Below, piece after piece: positions 46,931 through 57,176 of a stretch of 64,000 bases of DNA. Source of the stretch: a virus (lineage: Duplodnaviria; Caudoviricetes); the IMG/VR virus record IMGVR_UViG_2923519811_000002, positions 43,026 to 107,025 of that record; one strand, given 5' to 3'. Both the position numbers and the translations under genes were made by a program. Positions within the stretch are counted from its first letter, which is position 1. The number at the start of each line of letters is the position of its first letter. A model generated the notes under the pieces. The model saw only the letters and a list, made by a program, of their open reading frames with translations. It had not been told where the DNA came from and made no database searches.

Positions 46931-48192
46931 TCGAGGGCCTGGTGGATGCCGCCCTGGGCATCCTGCGGGACGCCGCCCGCAGCGCCCTGGGCGACAACGA
47001 CTACCCCGCGCCCATCTTCCGCCTGAGCGTGGACGGCCTCGACATCGCCCAGCAGGTGAGCCCGCGCCTGATCAGCCTCAGCCTCACCGACAATCGGGGC
47101 CTGGAGGCGGACCAGCTGGACATCAGCCTCAGCGACCACGACGGCCTGCTGGCCATCCCGCCCAAGGGCGCCGTGCTGCGCCTGTGGCTGGGCTGGACCG
47201 ATACCGGCCTGGTGGACAAGGGCACCTTCACCGTGGACGAGACCGAGCACAGCGGCATGCCCGACGTGCTCAACATCCGCGGCCGCAGCGCGGATCTGCG
47301 CAAGCAGCTCAAGGTCAAGCGCGAGCTGAGCTACAGCGGCACCACCCTGGGCGAGGTGATCCGCCAGATCGCCCAGCGCCAGGGCCTGGTGCCCGTGGTG
47401 GCCGAGGCCCTGGACGCCCAGCCGGTGCTGCAGCTGGACCAGGCCAACGAGTCCGACGCCAACCTCCTCACCCGCCTGGGCGAGGACTATGACGCCGTGG
47501 CCACGGTGAAGGCGGGCAGGCTGCTGTTCCTCGGCGGCAACGGTGGCAAGACCGCCAGCGGCGCCGAGCTGCCCCACATCACCCTCACCCGCGCCGACGG
47601 CGACCAGCACCGCTACCTGGTGGCCGACCGCGAGGCCTACGACGGCGTGCGCGCCTACTACTACAACGTCAACAGCGCCAGGAAGGAGGAGGCCATCGCC
47701 GGCGGCGGCGACAACCTCAAGGACCTGCGCCACACCTACAGCGACCAGGCCAGCGCCCTGCGCGCCGCCCGCAGCGAGTGGAACCGCCTGCAACGCGGCA
47801 GCGCCACCCTCAGCTACAGCCTGGCCAAGGGCCGCCCGGACCTCATCCCCGAACTCACCTACACCCTGCAGGGCGTGAAGGACGAGATCGACGCCATCGT
47901 CTGGCACGGCGGCAACGTGCAGCACAGCCTCACCGCCGACGGCGGCTACACCACCAGCCTGGAGCTGGAGAGCAAACTGCCCGAAGACCTGGTGGACGCG
48001 CTGTACGAGGAAGTGCCCGGCGACTACAGCGGCGTGATCGCCTACTACCGGGACAAGAAGACGGGGAAGGAGGCCAGCGTCACCGCTGGCGACCAGAGCA
48101 AGCCCAAACGCCTGCGGCACCTGTATGCGAGCAAGGCGAATGCGAAGCGGGCGGTGGAGAGGGAGTGGAACAAGTTGCAGCAGAGTTATTGA
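46927..48192 (+). CDS. Late control/baseplate hub gpD
   Basis: LTDNRGLEADQL, DQANESD..LLTRL. Confidence 0.95.
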   Translation: MIEGLVDAALGILRDAARSALGDNDYPAPIFRLSVDGLDIAQQVSPRLISLSLTDNRGLEADQLDISLSDHDGLLAIPPKGAVLRLWLGWTDTGLVDKGTFTVDETEHSGMPDVLNIRGRSADLRKQLKVKRELSYSGTTLGEVIRQIAQRQGLVPVVAEALDAQPVLQLDQANESDANLLTRLGEDYDAVATVKAGRLLFLGGNGGKTASGAELPHITLTRADGDQHRYLVADREAYDGVRAYYYNVNSARKEEAIAGGGDNLKDLRHTYSDQASALRAARSEWNRLQRGSATLSYSLAKGRPDLIPELTYTLQGVKDEIDAIVWHGGNVQHSLTADGGYTTSLELESKLPEDLVDALYEEVPGDYSGVIAYYRDKKTGKEASVTAGDQSKPKRLRHLYASKANAKRAVEREWNKLQQSY

Positions 48193-48236: not shown

Positions 48237-49376
48237 TTATTCACTTTCCAAAGAATGCCTTAGCTGTCGCATGAATTCATGTACGTGAGCTTCAACCTCT
48301 TCCCTGAATGTATCCGAATAGGTGATCCGCACATTGCCCTCATGCACACTGGCACAGAAGGCTTTGCACAAAAAACCTATATGCTTGTCGTACTTCCTAA
48401 TGAATGGAGTCGTAAAGACTCCGGACGGCGTATTAACCCTGATCAGATAACAGAGAAACTCCCCCAAAAAATTGATGTCATCACAACATTCTTCTACATA
48501 GGTATCACGATAGCGAGTGACCGGAGCAATGGTGAATGTCCGATCATTTCGAGCCACATAATCCTCTTCATCCTCGTCGCAGTGGATTTCCAAACTTCGG
48601 ATTTTTAGGTCATCGCCCTCATAGGTGGACTTGAGCAGGAACTGAGGGAAGTCGATTTGAAGTATGCCTTTGGAGTCGAGCTTTGCCTCCGCAAAGGCGT
48701 AAACCACATCTGAAATCTTGTGAAACTGGCCTCCGTGATATGCTACTACCTCGAACCCGCCTCCAAACAGATTTGCAATAGTCTCGGACTCGAACTTGTT
48801 TTCAAATTCGTCAACTAGGTGATTTGCGAACTGATGAAGGGCCATACAGGTGCCATGCACCACGATGTCCTCCTCAGGGACATCAAATGCAGCCAGAAGG
48901 TAACTTTCATGGTGCTCAATGGCATGAGCTGCTCCCGATCCACCGACGTACAGCTCGAAATGCTCGTTGGAACATCCAAAATCCGCACAGTAACTTGTGA
49001 TCTGGATTTCATCGTCCTCAACACTCAGTGCGATAGCTTTAAGATTTGCTTTTTTGAGCCGCTCGTCAGCAACGAGGGCGTTCAGAAAACGCTTACCTGT
49101 CAGCTCAGAGTCTTCCGCTAAGAGCTTATCAAGCTGTCGTATCGCGTCCTGAATATCAGGAACGTCGCCGGCAAAAGCGACAGCGAAGTGATCGTTCACC
49201 ACCAAAATTTTTTGGCAAAGCCCGACTACGGTGTGAGCTGCTAGGGTAGAGCCTTCAGTGTCGGACTGAAACGACGGGATCTGAGAGGGGCTCATCCAAG
49301 TATTGGGGCTGGTGAGCAGAATGTCAGCTTGAAGGAAGCCACCTCTCTTCAAGTGATAGCCTGTAATCATGGTCAT
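48237..49376 (-). CDS. Proteasome-beta-like Ntn-hydrolase protein
   Basis: AAGGA RBS then M-T; Asp at mature position 17, QKI, AFAGD, GGSG, FGGG; about 379 aa, low GC. Confidence 0.72.
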   Translation of the reverse strand: MTMITGYHLKRGGFLQADILLTSPNTWMSPSQIPSFQSDTEGSTLAAHTVVGLCQKILVVNDHFAVAFAGDVPDIQDAIRQLDKLLAEDSELTGKRFLNALVADERLKKANLKAIALSVEDDEIQITSYCADFGCSNEHFELYVGGSGAAHAIEHHESYLLAAFDVPEEDIVVHGTCMALHQFANHLVDEFENKFESETIANLFGGGFEVVAYHGGQFHKISDVVYAFAEAKLDSKGILQIDFPQFLLKSTYEGDDLKIRSLEIHCDEDEEDYVARNDRTFTIAPVTRYRDTYVEECCDDINFLGEFLCYLIRVNTPSGVFTTPFIRKYDKHIGFLCKAFCASVHEGNVRITYSDTFREEVEAHVHEFMRQLRHSLESE

Positions 49377-49547
49377 GTGCAATTCCTTTGGCGTTAGAGC
49401 TACAGCGAGGTACATGGCTGCGCGCCTGAACTGTAACTCACTCCTGACGCTGAGTGTTCCGTCCTCGACAAATACCTAGGTACTCAACGTCGGCGGAAGA
49501 TCATCTGCTTTATCGAAAAATCTCGTGGGTAGTGTCCAAGCTTTGCA

Positions 49548-49776
49548 CATCGTGTTCGCCTCACTCCACCTGAAAGACAGCCAGTGCACCAAAAACCAGC
49601 CCGAGGGCAGCCGGTTTGCCCCCCTCGGCTACGAGCGCCTGGCCATCGCCATTCCGGATGCGGATAAGGGCTACCTGTTCAAGACCCTCAAGTGCCCGAA
49701 CGGCGACGCGGACAAGGCGCCGGAGACGAAGCTGCAGGTCTCCGTGCCTTTGGAGTTCGATCAGCAAGAGATCTAG
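49548..49776 (+). pseudogene. 3' fragment of the membrane protein gene at 21177-22145
   Basis: Collinear and roughly 90% identical by eye to 21917-22145. Confidence 0.92.
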
Positions 49777-49802
49777 GGCTGACTACATTCGCCCTGGACC
49801 AA

Positions 49803-49943
49803 AGCGGCGTGATCGCCTGCTACCGGGACAAGAAGACGGGGAAGGAGGCCAGCGTCACCGCTGGCGACCAGAGCAAGCCGAAGCGCCTGCGGCACCTGTA
49901 TGCGAGCAAGGCGAATGCGAAGCGGGCGGTGGAGAGGGAGTGG
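49803..49943 (+). repeat. Direct repeat of the gpD 3' end
   Basis: 141 bp matching 48028-48168 with 3 mismatches. Confidence 0.95.
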
Positions 49944-50021
49944 GGAAAACTGAAGCAAGCGTTATCAACTTCAGCCTAAGCACTTGTAAGATGATGCGAA
50001 TATCACCCAAGGAGCGGCGTC

Positions 50022-50696
50022 ATGAGCGAAGTAGCAGCACAGCTAACAAGTGGAGACACAAATCAAATAATCACCATCGCAATTACGGCAGCAATTGCAA
50101 TAGTTTCACAATACATCATTACCAAGACAACAAAAAAAGCAGAATACGAATCCATCAAAGAAAACTTCAAGCACACACTAGAACAACACGAACAGCTTAC
50201 AGAAAAGAGCGGAAAGATAAACCATCATTTCAACCGCGAAGCTCTTGCCTACCAAATTAAGCTGAGCCACTATGAGTCAAAATCAACCGAAGCCATTGTT
50301 GCCTGCTACGAAAAATTAGTATCTCTTCAACAAGTAATGATGGACTTTCTTGCGTCCGACAATAGAGAGAGTGAAATCGAGGGCGTAATTGACAGCCTAA
50401 CGGAATATAGAAATTTAGTAATAGCCAAGAAAATATGGATTCCACCACAAACACTGGATCTTTTTGTTGGGATACAGAAAGAGCTTCAATATGAAGTAAC
50501 TCGCTACATTAAGGCACTTAGAAGCCTGCAAAAAACCGCTCAGAAAGATGACAAAGAGCTGGATATAATTTACCAAGCTCAAGGAAATTTTTATGATTAC
50601 ATTGTTCAGTTATCTAATCGTCTTTCTGATTTTGGCGATCACCTTGCGGAAGTTATCCGAAAAACAGTCCACTCACACTCTAGTTCACCTCTCTAA
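50022..50696 (+). CDS. N-terminally anchored helical/coiled-coil protein
   Basis: IITIAITAAIAIVS TM segment; AAGGAG RBS; low GC. Confidence 0.8.
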   Translation: MSEVAAQLTSGDTNQIITIAITAAIAIVSQYIITKTTKKAEYESIKENFKHTLEQHEQLTEKSGKINHHFNREALAYQIKLSHYESKSTEAIVACYEKLVSLQQVMMDFLASDNRESEIEGVIDSLTEYRNLVIAKKIWIPPQTLDLFVGIQKELQYEVTRYIKALRSLQKTAQKDDKELDIIYQAQGNFYDYIVQLSNRLSDFGDHLAEVIRKTVHSHSSSPL

Positions 50697-51942
50697 TCTC
50701 CCCCCACCGACTCACATACCCCGGCGATTTGAGCGCCTGTTTCATCGCCCACCCCGCCTCGTAGGGCACCGCTGCTAGCCGCACGGTGCCGCGCCCCATG
50801 CGCTGGTTGATCCGGTCCAGCGTTGCCATCAGCTCCGCGCTGCGCGGCCGGGGGCTGGGGGCGAACAGGTCGGCCTGGATCTGCCCGGGCCGCACGAAGT
50901 CCATCAGCAGCACCCCCGCCTTCTGGTACCGGTAGCCGGGCTGGTAGATCGCCTCCAGCCCGGCCAGGGCGGCGCGCACCAAGTCGCGGGTGTCGTGGGT
51001 GGGGTACGGCAGCGGCACGCTGGCGGTGCGTGCGTACTGGCGTTCGGTGGGGTTGAACACGCCGGTGCGGATGTACACCTGCAGGCGCTGGCAGTAGTCG
51101 CCCTGGCTGCGCAGCTTCTCGCCGGCGCGGCTGGCGTAGGTGGCCACCGCCTCGCGCAGCGGCACCAGGGCGGTGAGGCGTTCGGAGAACGAACGGCTGC
51201 AAGCGATCATCTGTTTCGGCTCGGGGCCGTCGTCCAGGGCGTAGCAGGCCTCCCCGCGCAGCTCGCGGATGGTTTTCTCCACCACCGCGCTGAACAGCTT
51301 GCGCATCGTCGTGGCGTCCTGCTGGGCCAGGTCCCAGGCGGTGCGGATGCCCATGGCCTCGAAGTGCCCGAGCAACTTGCGCCCCACCCCCCACACCTCG
51401 CTCACCGGCGCATCGCGCAGCAGGGCCTCGCGCTGTTCCGGCCGGGTGGCCACCACCACGCCGCTGCGCGACCGCCTCTTCGCGGCCCAGTTGGCCAACT
51501 TGGCGAGAGTCTTGGTGGTGGAGATGCCGATGCCCACAGGCATGCCCACCAGGCGCGCCATCTCGGCCTTGATGTGGCGGCCGTAGGCGGCCAGGGGCTG
51601 GTTGAGGCCGGTGAGGTCCAGGAAGGCCTCATCGATGCTGTACACCTCCACGCGCGGCGCCAGGCCGCGCAGCACGTGCACCACCCGCGCGGAGATGTTG
51701 CCGTACAGGGCGTAGTTGGAGCTGAACACCTCAATGCCGTGCAGGGCGATGCGCTCGCGCAGCTTGAAGTAAGGCTCGCCCATGGCGATGCCCAGCGCCT
51801 TGGCCTCGTTGCTGCGGCTGATCACGCAGCCGTCGTTGTTGGACAGCACCACCACCGGCAGGCCGCGCAGATCGGGGCGGAACAGCCGCTCGCAACTGAC
51901 GTAGAAGTTGTTGCAGTCCACCAGGGCGAAGACGCGGGGCAT
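50680..51942 (-). CDS. umuC: Y-family DNA polymerase V catalytic subunit (UmuC/RulB-like)
   Basis: LVDCNNFYVSCE, LSNNDGC, YSIDE. Confidence 0.95.
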   Translation of the reverse strand: MPRVFALVDCNNFYVSCERLFRPDLRGLPVVVLSNNDGCVISRSNEAKALGIAMGEPYFKLRERIALHGIEVFSSNYALYGNISARVVHVLRGLAPRVEVYSIDEAFLDLTGLNQPLAAYGRHIKAEMARLVGMPVGIGISTTKTLAKLANWAAKRRSRSGVVVATRPEQREALLRDAPVSEVWGVGRKLLGHFEAMGIRTAWDLAQQDATTMRKLFSAVVEKTIRELRGEACYALDDGPEPKQMIACSRSFSERLTALVPLREAVATYASRAGEKLRSQGDYCQRLQVYIRTGVFNPTERQYARTASVPLPYPTHDTRDLVRAALAGLEAIYQPGYRYQKAGVLLMDFVRPGQIQADLFAPSPRPRSAELMATLDRINQRMGRGTVRLAAVPYEAGWAMKQALKSPGYVSRWGEIREVN

Positions 51943-51943
51943 G

Positions 51944-52375
51944 TCAGGCGCTGGCGAGGGCGTGGATGTTGTGGGTGACCACGCCGAACACCTCCAGCTC
52001 GTCCTCGGCGGCGAGGCGGATGTCCGGGTAGGCGGGGTTGGCCGAGCGCAGCACGGGCAGGCCGTTCTCCAGCTCCAGGCGCTTGCAGGTGAAGTCGCCG
52101 CGCACGATGGCCACCACCACCTGGCCCGGGCGCGGGGTGAGGGAGCGGTCCACCACCAGGGTATCGCCCCGGTAGATGCCGGCGCCGGTCATGCTGTCGC
52201 CGCCTACGCGCAGGTAGAACGTCGCCGCGGGGTGACGCACGAACAGATCGAGCACGTCCAGCTCGGCCTCGATGTGGTCATCCGCCGGCGAGGGGAAGCC
52301 GGCTGACACCAGGCAGGAGAACAGGGGCAAGCGCACGTGGCCGCTTTTGTAGCGGCCAAGCAAGGTCAGGGGCAT
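51944..52375 (-). CDS. umuD: UmuD/RulA-like S24 autopeptidase
   Basis: AGFPSPA, GDSM, CKRL. Confidence 0.95.
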   Translation of the reverse strand: MPLTLLGRYKSGHVRLPLFSCLVSAGFPSPADDHIEAELDVLDLFVRHPAATFYLRVGGDSMTGAGIYRGDTLVVDRSLTPRPGQVVVAIVRGDFTCKRLELENGLPVLRSANPAYPDIRLAAEDELEVFGVVTHNIHALASA

Positions 52376-52393
52376 GGGGGCATTCCGATAATA

Positions 52394-52409
52394 CTGGATA
52401 GATATACAG
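52394..52409. promoter_or_regulatory. LexA (SOS) box upstream of umuDC
   Basis: CTGGATAGATATACAG (CTG-N10-CAG). Confidence 0.88.
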
Positions 52410-52534
52410 ATAGCAGGCTGTAGGAAAGCTCGCAACTTGACCAGACAAACGCCACCTTCGCCGACCACGGCGTTGCCTGGCACCCTCCTCCGCACTAGCC
52501 TCCCAGCCCTCTACCCCGCACAGGAAAGGACTCC

Positions 52535-53017
52535 ATGCACGCCCTGCGTACCGCCTGCCTCGCCCTTGCCGCCGCCCTGGCGGCTACCTACGCCACCCTC
52601 GCCCTCACCGAGCGCCCCGCTCGCACGCAGCCGATCACCCGGCCGCCGCTGCAGTTCCAGGAGCAGGACGGCGAGCTGAGGGTGTGGGGCGCCTGGGAGC
52701 TGGTGAAGGGCGACAGCCCCTACGACGTGCGCGCGGTGGAGATCCGCTGCTACAAGGCCCAGGGCCAGTGCATCAGCGCCACCGCCCTGGTGCTGAACCA
52801 CAACGAAGGCCAGGACGTGGAAGCCCAGGCCCACCTGTTCACCATCAGCAAATGGACGGCCCAGCGCCTGGAGGCCAAGGCCGGGCCCGGGAAGGAGGAC
52901 TGCAGCGAATGGACCCTCGCCCTGTACCCGGCCGACCGCAGCGGGAAGCTGAACTGGAAGGGGTCGGCCGGGTGCGAGGTGGATGCCGGGGAGGCGGTGT
53001 TGGTGGGGGATGACTAG
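52535..53017 (+). CDS. Exported/anchored beta-rich protein with Cys pairs
   Basis: Signal-like N-terminus; AAGGA RBS. Confidence 0.75.
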   Translation: MHALRTACLALAAALAATYATLALTERPARTQPITRPPLQFQEQDGELRVWGAWELVKGDSPYDVRAVEIRCYKAQGQCISATALVLNHNEGQDVEAQAHLFTISKWTAQRLEAKAGPGKEDCSEWTLALYPADRSGKLNWKGSAGCEVDAGEAVLVGDD

Positions 53018-54066
53018 CCCGGACCGCCGGCCTTCCCAGCCCGGCCCGCGAAGATTTTCTGGATAGGCTCAAGTCCATCGAACGTCGAAGGCAGTTTGTC
53101 GTCTTGCATCACCAAACCACTGAAAATCAGTGTTTCGAATTTTTCGAGAGCGTTGGGATTACCGTCCTTCATGTCTTTGGAACACTTCGAATACTTCTGG
53201 ATGAACCGGCATAGCGTGCGTCTAAGGTCAATCTGTAACAGCTGGGCCTTAGTGGAGTTAACGCTATGCAACATGATCCGGAAGAAGTAAATCAGGACCA
53301 ACTCAAGGGCGCCCAAGGTAACCAGAAGCGTAATATTCTGCTCACTGAGCATGTCAATTGCCCCGTTGGTTTTTTCACCGCCGAGTACGACAAGCGTGTA
53401 GATCAGTTTGATGACGAGTGGCGCGACAACGCAACAGCCAAGGGTAATAAGCCAAGCCTTCTGCCAGCAGAGCTCTCTTCTTTTTTGGACCCAAAGACTG
53501 TGAAAGCCTTTATAAAGCCCGACAAAATTAAAAGCGATCTCTTGTTTATCCAACTGCTTACTCAGCTCCAAAGTGCGCGCTTCTGCACCCTCGATCTCCT
53601 TGAGTCGCGCATCAACCTTATCAATTCCTGCAATATACCGACTTAGACAGTCAAAATCACTCGAAGCTTTTATACCATTAAGAACATTGGATACGAGCAC
53701 CATCTCCGCTTGCAGCAAAATCTTTACGTAACCTGCAGGCAAACTTTCTCTCATCTCAACAAAACGACTATCAAATAAGCCTGTTTCTTCATTTTCAAAT
53801 TCAAAGCTAGAAACCAAAAGATACACACAACAGTAAAGCTGTGCTGCATCTTCATCTTTGACACTCTCGCCATTATTCAAAATACTCAAAATCCTTCTCA
53901 ACTCATACAACCAGTGATTAGAAAAGGACTTTGGAAAACTGGATGAAGGAAAACGAGAAACCAGCCTTTTAAGTAAAATTAATGCTCCACCCAAAAGTCC
54001 ATCACTAGGTATTGTTTTGGCAGCCCAATCTCCAGACAGATCGAATAAATTTTCATCTGAGCTCAT
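53014..54066 (-). CDS. Coiled-coil plus 2-TM membrane protein
   Basis: FNFVGLYKGF, two hydrophobic helices, PSTFDG tail; low GC. Confidence 0.8.
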   Translation of the reverse strand: MSSDENLFDLSGDWAAKTIPSDGLLGGALILLKRLVSRFPSSSFPKSFSNHWLYELRRILSILNNGESVKDEDAAQLYCCVYLLVSSFEFENEETGLFDSRFVEMRESLPAGYVKILLQAEMVLVSNVLNGIKASSDFDCLSRYIAGIDKVDARLKEIEGAEARTLELSKQLDKQEIAFNFVGLYKGFHSLWVQKRRELCWQKAWLITLGCCVVAPLVIKLIYTLVVLGGEKTNGAIDMLSEQNITLLVTLGALELVLIYFFRIMLHSVNSTKAQLLQIDLRRTLCRFIQKYSKCSKDMKDGNPNALEKFETLIFSGLVMQDDKLPSTFDGLEPIQKIFAGRAGKAGGPG

Positions 54067-54276
54067 TCTCATCCCTTCTCAGTTGCAGTGAAGTAAAAAT
54101 CCCTTGCGAGAAGACTGCGCCTCGCAGAACTGGACCCGCGCGTAAAGGCAAAGAAGGAATGCGGTCCACCATCCTTGGCCAATACCCACCGGCAAGATAT
54201 TGCCATCAATTCGCCATCCTCTCCAAGGACACAAACGCCGACTTGTAGCCGGCGTCTGTAGAGGGTTTCAGGCGGC

Positions 54277-54498
54277 TCAGCGGCGGGGATCATCCCTGCA
54301 CAGCCACTCCTCCCGGATGATGCTGACATCAGCAGGTGCGCGGATGCCGAGGCGGGTGGTGCGGGAGGTGGTGCTGTGCACCTCGATCACGATGCCTTCG
54401 CTCTGCAGCTGCGCCACGATGGTGGCCGGGTCGGCGTCGGGGTGAACGTGGAGGTAGAGGCGCTGGCCTTCGCCGCGCGTGACGATCAGGTGGGGCAT
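54277..54498 (-). CDS. CsrA-family regulator of RsmN/RsmF type
   Basis: LIVTRGEGQ...inserted helix...RLGIRAPADVSIIREE. Confidence 0.85.
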   Translation of the reverse strand: MPHLIVTRGEGQRLYLHVHPDADPATIVAQLQSEGIVIEVHSTTSRTTRLGIRAPADVSIIREEWLCRDDPRR

Positions 54499-54656
54499 GG
54501 GGTGTCTCCTTCCTTGGCGGCCTCGATCTAAGGCCCACGGCCCATCCTAACTGCCTTGTCGCGTCCTACAGGGCGGCTCGGCTTGCGCCGGAAAAGGCCC
54601 TTGCCAAACAAGTGCCATGACGGAGGATGAAGCTCATCGCCATGGCACAGCGCCGA

Positions 54657-55223
54657 CTATTCATGCAGCTTATAGCCTAGGTAATAAAGTCCCCAAAAAG
54701 TCGCCAGTATCATTTGGTGTAACAACAGGAAGTAAACGAAGACGGAGAGCCACCCCACATAAAAGCCCACTTCGATCGTACCAATGCTCAGCGAAACGAT
54801 GCTTGTGCCATATCCAACTGAAAATATTGAAATCATGATGAGCACGATGCTCTCAGCCGTAAGGAACGAAAAAAGCATCGCAAGAAATCGGCGGCGCGTT
54901 AGCGATATGAGATTCTCTGTATCTCTAAATCTAACTTTTATCCTTGGAGTAGGCTCAGGTAAGACACTGTCAATATCAGACTTCCCGAAAGTAGCGATAG
55001 CGGCCAAAGCCGCAATATAAAAACCGGGAAGCGACTGAACAAAACCCAACACAAGAGAAATAACACCACCACCCTTTACAACATCATTCAAATTTCCCAA
55101 GCACGCCAGCAAGGCAACTGTTAAGAGCGCTAATACAACAGGGTAGAGCCAATCAATTCGCCATTTATATGGGTGCCTGATAGCAAGATACCCAAAGGGG
55201 CGCAATAACTGCTCTAGTAGCAT
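54657..55223 (-). CDS. 4-TM membrane protein (putative defence effector)
   Basis: Four hydrophobic helices, LPGFYIAALAAIATF, LTRRRFL; 3 nt from the upstream gene. Confidence 0.85.
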   Translation of the reverse strand: MLLEQLLRPFGYLAIRHPYKWRIDWLYPVVLALLTVALLACLGNLNDVVKGGGVISLVLGFVQSLPGFYIAALAAIATFGKSDIDSVLPEPTPRIKVRFRDTENLISLTRRRFLAMLFSFLTAESIVLIMISIFSVGYGTSIVSLSIGTIEVGFYVGWLSVFVYFLLLHQMILATFWGLYYLGYKLHE

Positions 55224-55226
55224 GTT

Positions 55227-56216
55227 CTACTCCATAAGCTCTAGCATTTCCTTGATAATACCATTGTTAATTTGATTAAGACTCGCAACATTGACCAATG
55301 GCGCCTGAATTATGTGACGCTTGATGTATTTATTTATATCCACAAGATTACCAGTATCGGTATCAATAGTAGCGTCTCGTGGTTCACCTTTTTCATTTTT
55401 GAAGCGAATACGCATCTGAGCATACTCACGTTGCTCCGCAGCTTTATTCCGGACCTGACGAACCATAGCGGCAAGGCTTCCTGCAAGAGAGCGCTGAGGC
55501 CTCAATTTTACGAATTTAGCATCCTCAAATACGGCCCCCCTGTCATCCCAGACAGCTCCGCGCTCGGTGAAGTCTAGTAGTTCAATACCTGTCAGCACGC
55601 CTGTCTCAAGCTCTTCTTGAAACTCCGACGAGGGATGACCAAGCAACTCTACAGTGTGGATATGCCGCACCATCAAGGGGTTCCCATCGGCATCGCGGGC
55701 ACCATTAATGTTGGGAATTAAAAACCGCTCTGGGAAATGTTTTCGGCAATATGCAAAAATAAATCTCATGTAGTCTTTTATGCTGCTCGCATGGAGACCA
55801 GAGCCAAACACCGTTTCAACCACGCACAGATAATAGTTATCCCCTCTGGTCGGTTGAAGCGGGATAATCACGTGCGCTGAGTAGTCACCGCCATGTCCCG
55901 GCGGCTTGGTGTGGACAACTCGGCTTTTATTCTCCGGATCGGAGGAAACAGCGTCAGGTGCGTTCGGATCACATCGATTGATAAGAAAGATCAGGCGATC
56001 ATTTCTTAATTCAAGATCAGAAATGTAATACCTTGCCGATTTCTCGCTTCGCCCCTTCTTAAGAATCGGATCACCGCCCTTAAATAGTTGATCAATGAGC
56101 GCATACATCTCCCTCAATGATAGCGGATCAGTCTCGAAATTTGCTTCATTCTCACTGGCTTGGGAAACGCCCCTAGCGGTGATCTTCAAATCATAGAAAG
56201 TTGCAGTACGATGCAC
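55227..56216 (-). CDS. 329-aa soluble protein (putative defence sensor)
   Basis: Low-GC ORF with GAGGTG RBS, coupled to the 4-TM gene. Confidence 0.85.
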   Translation of the reverse strand: MHRTATFYDLKITARGVSQASENEANFETDPLSLREMYALIDQLFKGGDPILKKGRSEKSARYYISDLELRNDRLIFLINRCDPNAPDAVSSDPENKSRVVHTKPPGHGGDYSAHVIIPLQPTRGDNYYLCVVETVFGSGLHASSIKDYMRFIFAYCRKHFPERFLIPNINGARDADGNPLMVRHIHTVELLGHPSSEFQEELETGVLTGIELLDFTERGAVWDDRGAVFEDAKFVKLRPQRSLAGSLAAMVRQVRNKAAEQREYAQMRIRFKNEKGEPRDATIDTDTGNLVDINKYIKRHIIQAPLVNVASLNQINNGIIKEMLELME

Positions 56217-56224
56217 TTATCACC

Positions 56225-56632
56225 TCAACTATCAACTACTGTGAAAACATGTTGCTTCATATAGTTCAACGCCTTCGCTTGCCTAATAGTGGGCGTCAAC
56301 AGGTTGGTAACCGCTGTCACAACTCGAAACCCATACCCCATAGCCATAACCGCCAGATACGCACAATCCGCCGCTTTGAAGCCGGGAAAGAATCGGAGGC
56401 CGGGTGTCGAGTTGCGCTTTGAGGGCCGGCCCGGGGCCGGTGGGGCTTGGTCCAAAAGCAGGTGATCGTAGCCTTCGAGATAGGCCTGGATTCGATCCTT
56501 GCGGAAGGTACGGGGCGGGCTGTCGGTTACCGTTCGCCCCTGGATATAGCGAGTGTTCTCAAACCGGCGAATCAACATCCAATCGCGTGATTCACCTTTG
56601 GCGTCTTGGTAGACGAAACGCAGGGGAAGCAT
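56225..56632 (-). CDS. WYL-like domain plus truncated BRCT-like domain protein (possible pseudogene)
   Basis: FVYQDAKG...RTFRKDRI; F.GFKAAD...G.RVV..VT, then the pattern is lost. Confidence 0.6.
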   Translation of the reverse strand: MLPLRFVYQDAKGESRDWMLIRRFENTRYIQGRTVTDSPPRTFRKDRIQAYLEGYDHLLLDQAPPAPGRPSKRNSTPGLRFFPGFKAADCAYLAVMAMGYGFRVVTAVTNLLTPTIRQAKALNYMKQHVFTVVDS

Positions 56633-56670: not shown

Positions 56671-57087
56671 CTATGCCAGCCTTTTGCCAGCTACGACAAC
56701 GGCCTCAAGCTCCGCAACGCGTTGTTCGAGCGTGTTCAGGCGCTTCTTCTCTTCGGCATGACGCTGAATGTCTCGCTGGGCTTCTTCGTCCAGTTCACGC
56801 CACAAAGCCAACATTGCTCGCTCTCTTGGGCTATCAGCAGGTTCAGCGGGGGTATTACCGCCGTTCTCACGGTACATGCTCCCCTCCCCCGTCAGCAGCC
56901 AATCAAGGCTGACGCCTCGCTCCAGCGCCACATCTACACAAATTGTGTAAGGCACCGAGTCTCGGCTACGCCAGTTCCCCAGGGTTGATCGGTTGACCTG
57001 GAGGGCATCGCCCAGCTGATTGTCGTTTTTAACGCCAAAGACCTCATGCAGACGGTCCATGACGCTCGCCGCGCTTGTATTTCCCAA
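56671..57087 (-). CDS. CI-like prophage repressor
   Basis: HTH QLGDALQVNRSTLGNWRSR, VSLDWLLTGEG; probable TTG start after GGAGAG. Confidence 0.9.
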   Translation of the reverse strand: MGNTSAASVMDRLHEVFGVKNDNQLGDALQVNRSTLGNWRSRDSVPYTICVDVALERGVSLDWLLTGEGSMYRENGGNTPAEPADSPRERAMLALWRELDEEAQRDIQRHAEEKKRLNTLEQRVAELEAVVVAGKRLA

Positions 57088-57132
57088 AATTGGAAACTCT
57101 CCGTTGACATGCCCCAATTTGGGACATAGGCT
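57078..57132. promoter_or_regulatory. Lysis/lysogeny switch: lytic promoter and operators
   Basis: TTGACA-N17-TAGGCT (57104-57132); imperfect palindromes TTTCCCAAAATTGGAAA and ATGCCCCAATTTGGGACAT. Confidence 0.75.
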
Positions 57133-57176
57133 TACACGTATTGAGAACATCTTATCCAAGCGAGTGCTGTCAGACC

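What the first reader, a model, noticed from the sequence alone, without database searches (positions are those of the whole stretch)
48237..49376. Prophage-encoded proteasome-beta-like (Ntn-Thr) protein as stand-alone cargo
Seen: the RBS-supported start gives M-TMITGYHLKRGGFLQAD, so Met removal exposes Thr1 with Asp at exactly position 17. It is followed by QKILVVNDHFAVAFAGD (Lys33/Gly47-like), YVGGSGAAHA (Ser129-like) and LFGGGFEV, plus a ~150-aa acidic C-terminal extension. Known: Thr1/Asp17/Lys33/Gly47/Ser129 define proteasome beta, HslV, Anbu and connectase proteins. No ATPase partner is nearby. The gene is low-GC, antisense to the late operon and in a cargo hotspot. Inference: an undescribed lysogen-expressed protease or protein ligase, plausibly anti-phage, with the extension as sensor or substrate adaptor.
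Basis: partly seen in the sequence, partly recalled or inferred. Interest (0 to 1): 0.85.

Follow-up and report, generated by a model that had tools for sequence, protein, structure and literature searches.

The report
Stand-alone proteasome-like hydrolase, prophage cargo
A low-GC cargo gene in a P2-like prophage encodes a distant relative of the proteasome/HslV cutting subunit, with every catalytic residue conserved, an extra domain of unrecognised fold and no partner genes; its relatives sit among anti-phage genes, but its function is untested.

Summary
Window 48237-49376 (-) encodes a 379-aa protein that starts Met-Thr. Asp17, Lys33, Gly47 and Ser129 equivalents are invariant or nearly so across 50 relatives that share only about 20% identity with it. 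An AlphaFold2 model (pLDDT 83) matches 20S proteasome beta subunits (Z 13-14). Model residue 2 aligns with residue 1 of the solved HslV, BPH, connectase, Anbu and one beta-subunit chain. Residues ~234-379 form a confidently modelled domain with no match among solved structures.

The gene is single-gene cargo. It has 48% GC against 69% for its neighbours, lies antisense to the tail operon, and is bracketed by a 161-nt duplication of the gpD 3' end. Across 12 distinct contexts in other genomes, no neighbouring gene recurs in all of them. Those neighbours often include known or candidate defence genes, such as DRT UG17, PD-T7-5, GmrSD and PDC-M53.

"Undescribed" is doubtful. Fuchs, Alva and Lupas (2021) catalogued 22 uncharacterised proteasome homologues, and this family probably matches one of them. 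I could not test that. Anti-phage function and expression in the lysogen remain inference.

Notes from this scan describe comparable stand-alone proteasome-like genes on other DNA.

The parts
48237..49376 (-). CDS of the 379-aa proteasome-like protein (stop codon 48237-48239)
   Evidence: 55 protein clusters at 38-71% identity. 346 cluster representatives at E<=1e-3, mostly 355-390 aa and aligned from residue 1.
49384..49388 (-). Shine-Dalgarno-like AAGGA, 7 nt before the ATG at 49376
   Evidence: the start is supported by the conserved MT start of relatives
48678..49376 (-). Residues 1-233: proteasome-type Ntn domain. Thr2, Asp18, Thr22, Lys56, Gly70, Gly146-Ser147-Gly148, Gly205-207 and Glu209.
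   Evidence: AF2 model pLDDT 83, pTM 0.83. At least 500 Foldseek hits, and all 50 listed are 20S proteasome subunits. VIA Z 13.9-12 to 20S proteasome subunits (beta and alpha); model residue 2 aligns with residue 1 of the HslV, BPH, connectase, Anbu and one beta-subunit chain. Column counts. PHROG 1040 'peptidase HslV family' E=2e-4. hhalign to E. coli HslV E=0.008, in register.
49224..49310 (-). Residues 23-51: variable, low-confidence insertion between the Asp17 strand and the Lys33 strand, holding one invariant Pro (Pro34)
   Evidence: pLDDT below 50 for residues 22-51. Pro34 is 50/50. Mean pairwise identity 0.20 against 0.28 for the core. By my mapping, this is the S3/S4 site where PMC8665760 places the connectase lid.
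48240..48677 (-). Residues 234-379: extra mostly-beta domain plus a long terminal helix (355-378); no recognised fold
   Evidence: Modelled alone (residues 222-379): pLDDT 90.6. Best VIA Z 3.5 among 48,161 chains. No Foldseek PDB hit at E<=1e-3. No Pfam match. More divergent than the core across the family.
48022..48182 (+). True 3' end of gpD; left copy of the 161-nt direct repeat that brackets the cargo gene
   Evidence: gpD identified
49797..49957 (+). Orphan second copy of the gpD 3' end (93% identical); right border of the cassette
   Evidence: the remnant reading frame is visible (ORF 49692-49979)

Best explanation
The gene encodes a cytoplasmic N-terminal-threonine hydrolase of the proteasome/HslV lineage with no partner gene. 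Methionine aminopeptidase would remove Met1 and expose Thr as the nucleophile; Asp17 and Lys33 complete the catalytic triad and Gly47 forms the oxyanion hole. These residues and the fold are shown here; activity is inferred. There is no propeptide and no unfoldase. I therefore infer that access to the active site is controlled within the protein, by the variable 29-residue loop at the site where connectase has its lid and by the fast-evolving C-terminal domain of unrecognised fold, one or both of which would select the substrate or trigger. The gene travels alone as cargo of prophages, ICE-like islands and chromosomal defence islands. My preferred biological reading, from neighbourhood only, is a prophage-borne anti-phage or conflict protease that cleaves a specific phage or host protein during infection.
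For: Catalytic set conserved at about 20% identity to the query: Thr2 49/49, Asp18 50/50, Lys56 50/50, Gly70 48/50, Ser/Thr147 48/50. 149 of 188 relatives start MT and 142 of those 149 have Asp18. Fold: Z 13-14 to 20S proteasome subunits, with residue 2 aligned to residue 1 of the HslV, BPH, connectase, Anbu and one beta-subunit chain. Weak sequence links in register: PF00227 E=0.002, PHROG 1040 E=2e-4, hhalign to HslV E=0.008. Single-gene module: no neighbouring gene, upstream DNA or small ORF recurs across the contexts compared. Patchy distribution: 5 of 401 species genomes of one bacterial family. Defence neighbours: PDC-M53A/B in the window; DRT UG17 with SLATT, a PD-T4-6-like kinase and a PDC-M68A-like nuclease in L001; PD-T7-5 in L005; a caspase-like pair in L008-L010; GmrSD, HsdR and AAA_15/21 in L016; a DpnII/MboI-family protein in L015. 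No relatives found in INPHARED phages or in IMG/VR, which argues against a core phage function.
Against: No activity, processing, oligomer or expression data exist. PADLOC-DB v2 has no model that matches the protein. The defence association comes from about a dozen hand-picked contexts with no background control, and mobile islands carry many kinds of cargo. PF00227 stays below its gathering score, and only 1 of 50 family members hits it at all. Individual proteasome subunits are inactive outside the assembled ring (PMC8665760), so activity may depend on an assembly state I could not test. The Asp166 equivalent is not conserved.
Confidence: 0.45

Rival explanations
1. It is a sequence-specific transpeptidase or ligase, or a single-cut processing enzyme, in the manner of connectase. 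It would act as a monomer on one defined target rather than as a degradative protease.
For: An insertion sits at the S3/S4 site where connectase carries its substrate-selecting lid (PMC8665760). There is no ATPase partner. The large extra domain may be incompatible with stacked rings. Connectase appears in the structural list at Z 9.8.
Against: Helices H1 and H2, which connectase lacks, are present in the model at residues 72-88 and 94-108. Beta subunits score higher (Z 13-14) than connectase. The insertion is predicted disordered, not two-helical. No conserved neighbouring gene could serve as a substrate.
Confidence: 0.2
2. It is mobile-element cargo with a role unrelated to phage defence. 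Examples would be an addiction or toxic protease, a counter-defence factor that destroys a host immune protein, or a general stress protease that helps the host.
For: It is carried by a prophage, by ICE-like islands with an HerA/DUF87-type ATPase and by integrase islands. Fuchs et al. found no informative context for any new homologue family (PMC8665760).
Against: No relative was found in 50,697 phage records or in IMG/VR. That is unexpected for a phage counter-defence gene. No antitoxin-like partner is conserved. Many copies lie in chromosomal islands beside recognised defence genes.
Confidence: 0.25
3. It is a catalytically dead scaffold, or an Ntn amidohydrolase that acts on a non-protein amide.
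For: Other Ntn hydrolases such as penicillin acylases, ceramidase and bile-salt hydrolases appear in the structural list at Z 6-8. The Asp166 equivalent is not conserved.
Against: The full Thr1/Asp17/Lys33/Gly47/Ser129 set is invariant or nearly so at about 20% identity to the query, which indicates selection on catalysis. 20S proteasome subunits stand 5-6 Z units above the other Ntn clans.
Confidence: 0.08

Closest known systems
20S proteasome beta subunit (MEROPS T1, Pfam PF00227)
   Same: Same Ntn alpha-beta-beta-alpha core (Z 13-14, 160-190 aligned residues). Thr1, Asp17, Lys33, Gly47 and Ser129 equivalents are conserved.
   Different: No propeptide. PF00227 is below its threshold (18.2 against 22.4 bits). 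A 29-residue insertion precedes Lys33. There is an extra ~145-residue C-terminal domain, no alpha subunit and no ATPase. The Asp166 equivalent is not conserved.
HslV (ClpQ), peptidase of HslVU
   Same: Bacterial; Met-Thr start with no propeptide here; Thr1/Asp17/Lys33/Gly45 align in register by hhalign (E=0.008); Z 9.8; matches the PHROG family 'peptidase HslV family'.
   Different: HslV is about 175 aa and is encoded beside hslU. Here no AAA+ neighbour was seen in the window or in the contexts examined, and the protein is twice as long.
Uncharacterised proteasome homologues of Fuchs, Alva & Lupas 2021 (PMC8665760), especially GPH (written 'DGH' in one passage, which I take to be the same family) and RPC
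   Same: Proteobacterial, no AAA+ partner, catalytic residues kept, and an extra C-terminal domain that matches no known structure, all as that paper describes.
   Different: The paper says RPC lacks helix H2, which this model has. The paper reports no informative gene context, whereas these homologues lie in prophage and defence-island cargo.
Connectase (MJ0548; PDB 6zw0)
   Same: Proteasome-fold enzyme with no partner, and an insertion at the S3/S4 site over the active site; Z 9.8.
   Different: Connectase lacks H1/H2, is confined to methanogenic archaea and acts on MtrA (PMC7980362). Here H1/H2 are present, the hosts are Proteobacteria, and the insertion is predicted disordered.
Anbu
   Same: Bacterial proteasome homologue with no propeptide and a long C-terminal helix. 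Z 12.5 with 198 aligned residues, spanning model residues 2-379.
   Different: Anbu is about 240 aa with no extra beta domain. The Anbu operon partners I recall (own knowledge) are not among the neighbours seen here.

Membership tests
Proteasome-like Ntn hydrolases (T1 clan: 20S beta, HslV, Anbu, BPH, connectase and the 22 families of PMC8665760) | N-terminal Thr (or Ser) nucleophile directly after the initiator Met or a propeptide | tested here: met
   Thr2 49/49 in A2; 149 of 188 relatives start MT; model residue 2 aligns with residue 1 of the HslV, BPH, connectase, Anbu and one beta-subunit chain. Actual removal of Met was not tested.
Proteasome-like Ntn hydrolases (T1 clan: 20S beta, HslV, Anbu, BPH, connectase and the 22 families of PMC8665760) | Asp17 and Lys33 of the catalytic triad, and the Gly47 oxyanion hole | tested here: met
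   Asp18 50/50, Lys56 50/50, Gly70 48/50; in register with HslV by hhalign
Proteasome-like Ntn hydrolases (T1 clan: 20S beta, HslV, Anbu, BPH, connectase and the 22 families of PMC8665760) | Alpha-beta-beta-alpha Ntn core with helices H1-H4 | tested here: met
   AF2 pLDDT 83; at least 500 Foldseek matches, all 50 listed being 20S proteasome subunits; VIA Z 13.9-12
Proteasome-like Ntn hydrolases (T1 clan: 20S beta, HslV, Anbu, BPH, connectase and the 22 families of PMC8665760) | Score above the Pfam PF00227 gathering threshold | tested here: not met
   18.2 bits against a cut-off of 22.4; only 1 of 50 family members matches at E<=0.01. This is sequence divergence. PMC8665760 says many of its new homologues show only low pairwise similarity to known ones and so went undetected.
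Proteasome-like Ntn hydrolases (T1 clan: 20S beta, HslV, Anbu, BPH, connectase and the 22 families of PMC8665760) | Thr1-dependent peptidase or transpeptidase activity | not testable with these tools
   Needs biochemistry
HslV | Adjacent or co-occurring HslU AAA+ unfoldase | tested here: not met
   No AAA+ unfoldase seen among the window ORFs searched from 43.9 to 62 kb, and none recurs across the homologue contexts
HslV | Compact subunit of about 175 aa that forms stacked hexameric rings | tested here: inconclusive
   The length of 379 aa with an extra domain is unlike HslV.
Connectase | Absence of helices H1/H2, plus a two-helix lid inserted at S3/S4 | tested here: not met
   H1 (72-88) and H2 (94-108) are present; the insertion at residues 23-51 is at the same site but is modelled without helices and at low confidence
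GPH / RPC of Fuchs et al. 2021 | Proteobacterial homologue with an extra C-terminal domain that matches no known structure | tested here: met
   Named hosts are Pseudomonas, Burkholderia, Serratia, Citrobacter, Yersinia, Klebsiella, Cronobacter and Paracidovorax. The C-domain has no PDB match.
GPH / RPC of Fuchs et al. 2021 | Sequence clustering with the reference members (WP_152342571.1 for GPH, WP_140207863 for RPC) | not testable with these tools
RPC is said to lack H2, which this model has.
Known or candidate anti-phage defence proteins (PADLOC-DB v2.0.0) | Match to a defence-system profile | tested here: not met
   0 families even at E<=10

The most novel reading that the evidence does not exclude
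A one-gene, ATP-independent enzyme built on the proteasome fold is an anti-phage immune protein. Its new-fold C-terminal domain and variable lid loop would sense a phage product and release Thr1 proteolysis. That would add the proteasome fold to the protease effectors known in bacterial immunity and give a function to one of the orphan proteasome-homologue families.
Probability: 0.3. Interest if true: 0.8.

Novelty: new variant of a known kind. Interest (0 to 1): 0.55.

Why it matters
Bacterial proteasome homologues other than HslV, Anbu, BPH and connectase have no known function, and the paper that catalogued them found no informative gene context. This family has a clear context. It is single-gene cargo that moves between a P2-like prophage, ICE-like elements and defence islands, it keeps a fully conserved threonine-protease active site, and it carries a domain of unrecognised fold. 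That makes the question testable with one gene and one point mutant in laboratory strains: is it a protease, and does it protect against phage?

Tried and rejected
- Sequence search of PDB with the protein and with the family profile gave nothing relevant; the only hits were Vipp1 at E about 0.5.
- Only the query itself touches PF00227 among the 50 A2 members scanned against Pfam.
- INPHARED tblastn found no match.
- The IMG/VR pattern scan found no relative. It depends on two short peptide patterns, so this is weak evidence.
- The genome-contig scan returned only 2 loci; the first attempt with A2 failed for lack of a conserved stretch.
- A search for longer fused forms found none; the tool itself rates this as weak evidence.
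- BFVD holds only short (146-290 aa) phage HslV/proteasome-like proteins that match the N-domain.
- No RNA holder was listed for the locus.
- The promoter/terminator scan and a fold of the 44-nt gap between the convergent gpD and target stop codons showed nothing above chance.
- I looked for a small conserved partner ORF or conserved upstream DNA, a lead from earlier notes on other proteasome-like cassettes. None was found. Only L008 and L010 share about 140 nt upstream.
- The caspase-like 580-aa plus 290-aa pair is convergent with the homologue in three genera but absent from the window and from the other contexts, so I do not treat it as part of the system.
- Relatives could not be drawn for the window's own record because it is a provirus record.

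Full report
**1. What is there**

The ORF at 48237-49376 on the minus strand is open and encodes 379 residues. AAGGA lies 7 nt before the ATG at 49376. An in-frame ATG at 49415 exists. However, 16 of 20 close homologues begin at the same MT (two more are called two residues later), and 149 of 188 full-length family proteins start MT, with 5 more starting VT. The few N-terminal extensions are unrelated to each other.

The gene has 48% GC (GC3 0.52). The tape-measure gene, gpD and umuC have 69% GC (GC3 0.94-0.96).

**2. Is it a proteasome-type Ntn protein?**

Sequence methods alone are weak but consistent:
- Pfam Proteasome: E=0.002, below the gathering score, over residues 54-89.
- PHROG 1040 'peptidase HslV family': E=2e-4 over residues 1-154.
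- hhalign of the family profile against E. coli HslV: E=0.008. The Met-Thr start, the Asp17 strand, the Lys33 strand and the Gly45/47 strand are in register.
- PDB sequence searches found nothing.

The family is large. There are 55 clusters at 38-71% identity in Pseudomonas, Burkholderia, Serratia and Citrobacter. A library of 1.8 billion cluster representatives holds 346 matches at E<=1e-3, nearly all 355-390 aa and aligned from residue 1.

In an alignment of 50 members that average about 20% identity to the query, these positions survive:

| Position | Count |
|---|---|
| Thr2 | 49/49 |
| Asp18 | 50/50 |
| Thr/Ser22 | 46/50 |
| Pro34 | 50/50 |
| Lys56 | 50/50 |
| Gly70 | 48/50 |
| Gly146 | 50/50 |
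| Ser/Thr147 | 48/50 |
| Gly148 | 46/50 |
| Gly205 | 50/50 |
| Gly206 / Gly207 | 47/50, 46/50 |
| Glu209 | 46/50 |
| Lys220 | 45/50 |

Counted from Thr1, these include the Thr1, Asp17, Thr21, Lys33, Gly47 and Ser129/Gly130 positions of proteasome beta subunits and HslV.

An AlphaFold2 model built from 20 homologues has pLDDT 83 and pTM 0.83. Foldseek returns at least 500 PDB matches at E<=1e-3, and all 50 listed are 20S proteasome subunits. An independent all-against-representatives structural search gives the following:
- 20S proteasome subunits (beta and alpha): Z 13.9-12
- Anbu: Z 12.5
- HslV: Z 9.8
- connectase: Z 9.8
- BPH: Z 8.8
- other Ntn clans: Z 8 or less

Model residue 2 aligns with residue 1 of the HslV, BPH, connectase, Anbu and one beta-subunit chain.

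**3. Features that differ from characterised relatives**

(a) Residues 23-51 form a variable, low-confidence insertion between the Asp17/Thr21 strand and the Lys33 strand, with one invariant proline. By my mapping this is the S3/S4 site at which connectase carries its substrate-selecting lid, and at which PMI-5 and PMI-6 have insertions (PMC8665760).

(b) Residues ~234-379 form a mostly beta domain ending in a long helix. Modelled alone it reaches pLDDT 90.6. It has no structural match: best Z is 3.5 among 48,161 chains, and Foldseek finds nothing at E<=1e-3. It diverges faster than the core, with mean pairwise identity 0.19 against 0.28. Some whole-model alignments extend to residues 307-329, and the Anbu alignment extends to residue 379. 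The extra domain may therefore be packed against the core, with the terminal helix playing the part of H5. I could not inspect coordinates.

(c) The whole protein is acidic (pI 4.8), not only the C-terminal part.

**4. Context in the window**

The window comes from a 107-kb provirus record. The gene order is:
- tape measure (PhageMin_Tail), a 147-aa ORF I take to be gpU by its position, and gpD on the plus strand
- the target, antisense
- an orphan second copy of the last 161 nt of gpD, 93% identical
- a 224-aa ORF at 39% GC
- a umuDC-like pair at host-like GC
- more low-GC cargo, including the PADLOC candidate system PDC-M53A/B
- a CI-type repressor and a Toprim-domain protein

The target is thus one cassette in a cargo array between the late operon and the immunity region. 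The duplicated gpD end indicates that it was acquired by recombination within gpD.

**5. Context elsewhere**

I examined 12 further distinct contexts: L001, L005, L006, L008, L009, L010, L013/14, L015, L016-18, L019 and L020. For seven of these loci and the window, all-against-all protein and DNA comparisons show that only the target gene is shared by all of them. A blastp of small flanking ORFs that also included L019 and L020 found no conserved small partner. For the remaining loci I compared the called-gene tables by eye.

The neighbours include:
- a DRT UG17 reverse transcriptase with SLATT, a PD-T4-6-like kinase, a PDC-M68A-like nuclease and a second paralogue of the target, all in one P. 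aeruginosa island (L001)
- PD-T7-5 (L005)
- a caspase-like 580-aa plus 290-aa pair in Burkholderia, Serratia and P. aeruginosa (L008-L010; PADLOC results)
- GmrSD, type I HsdR, an SMC-like ATPase and an AAA_15/21 ATPase (L016)
- a DpnII/MboI-family protein (L015)
- integrases (L013)
- ICE-like genes (L019, L020)

Only 5 of 401 species genomes of one bacterial family carry a homologue. No relative was found in 50,697 phage records or in IMG/VR. The gene therefore behaves as sporadic, mobile, single-gene cargo that tends to lie among immunity genes. This is association from a small, uncontrolled sample.

**6. Mechanism**

Shown: the fold, the conserved catalytic set, the Met-Thr start, the lack of any recurring partner gene, and cargo status.

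Inferred: methionine aminopeptidase exposes Thr1; the enzyme is an active peptidase or transpeptidase; the lid-site loop and the C-domain govern access or specificity; the biological role is anti-phage or inter-element conflict.

I put about 0.9 on 'intact proteasome-type Ntn active site', about 0.7 on 'active peptidase or transpeptidase in vivo', and about 0.4-0.45 on 'defence function'. The rival explanations are listed separately: a connectase-like specific ligase or processing enzyme, non-defence cargo or counter-defence, and a dead scaffold or non-peptide amidase.

**7. Comparison with what is known**

Fuchs, Alva & Lupas 2021 (PMC8665760) describe 22 uncharacterised proteasome homologues. 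None had an AAA+ partner or an informative context. Among the ones with extra C-terminal domains matching no known structure, RPC is found only in Proteobacteria and GPH almost only there ('DGH' in one passage of the paper, which I take to be the same family). RPC is said to lack H2, which this model has, so GPH is my best guess.

The protein does not fit HslV (no HslU, twice the length). It does not fit connectase (H1/H2 present) or Anbu (an extra domain, and no Anbu operon partners that I recall among the neighbours). PADLOC-DB has no model for it. I found no paper linking proteasome homologues to phage defence.

Notes from this scan describe comparable stand-alone proteasome-like genes on other DNA, often near defence genes. 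I treated those as leads only. One lead, a tiny partner gene, was tested here and not found.

**8. Verdict**

The structural interpretation is supported. 'Undescribed' is doubtful, and the defence role is plausible but unproven. This is an uncharacterised architectural variant of a known enzyme kind, with a context that makes it testable with one gene.

Noticed in passing
window 48022-48182 and 49797-49957: The last 161 nt of gpD are duplicated (93% identity, 1775 nt apart) and bracket the target gene. The second copy is an orphan remnant ahead of the next cargo ORF. This suggests cargo cassettes are stacked by recombination within the gpD 3' end.
   Followed up: partly
window 50022-50696 (+): A 224-aa ORF at 39% GC forms the second cassette after the gpD remnant. 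It has only weak matches: DUF7018 at E=0.0045 and phrog_10149 at E=6e-4. PADLOC finds nothing.
   Followed up: partly
window 50680-52495 (-): A umuC-like gene (IMS, IMS_C, DUF4113) and a umuD-like gene (Peptidase_S24) at host-like GC sit inside the prophage cargo region, between two low-GC blocks.
   Followed up: partly
window 53014-56632 (-): A second low-GC block. It holds a 352-aa protein (phrog_9373), the PADLOC candidate defence pair PDC-M53B (E=8e-78) and PDC-M53A (E=3e-149), and a 135-aa protein with a weak match to a PHROG annotated 'DNA ligase'. A CI-type repressor follows at 56671-57159.
   Followed up: partly
L001 3385-4536 and 8001-9146: One P. aeruginosa island carries two paralogues of the family, each 56-60% identical to the window protein. 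They lie beside a PDC-M68A-like nuclease, a PD-T4-6-like kinase and a DRT UG17 reverse transcriptase with a SLATT_5 protein. Part of the flanking DNA is shared with the loci in P. proteolytica and P. gessardii, so this may be the same chromosomal hotspot.
   Followed up: partly
L008 9236-11847, L009 9631-12245, L010 9194-11802: A 290-aa protein and a 580-aa caspase-like (Peptidase_C14, PADLOC 'caspase') protein lie convergent with the homologue in Burkholderia, Serratia and P. aeruginosa, at 71-88% identity. They are absent from the window and from the other contexts. They may be a co-travelling second system.
   Followed up: partly
L016 5233-11153: In a metagenomic defence island with GmrSD and type I HsdR, a distant family member sits 48 nt after a 906-aa SMC_N/AAA_23 ATPase and 60 nt before an AAA_15/21 ATPase plus a 302-aa protein, all on one strand. 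This may be an operon particular to that subfamily.
   Followed up: no
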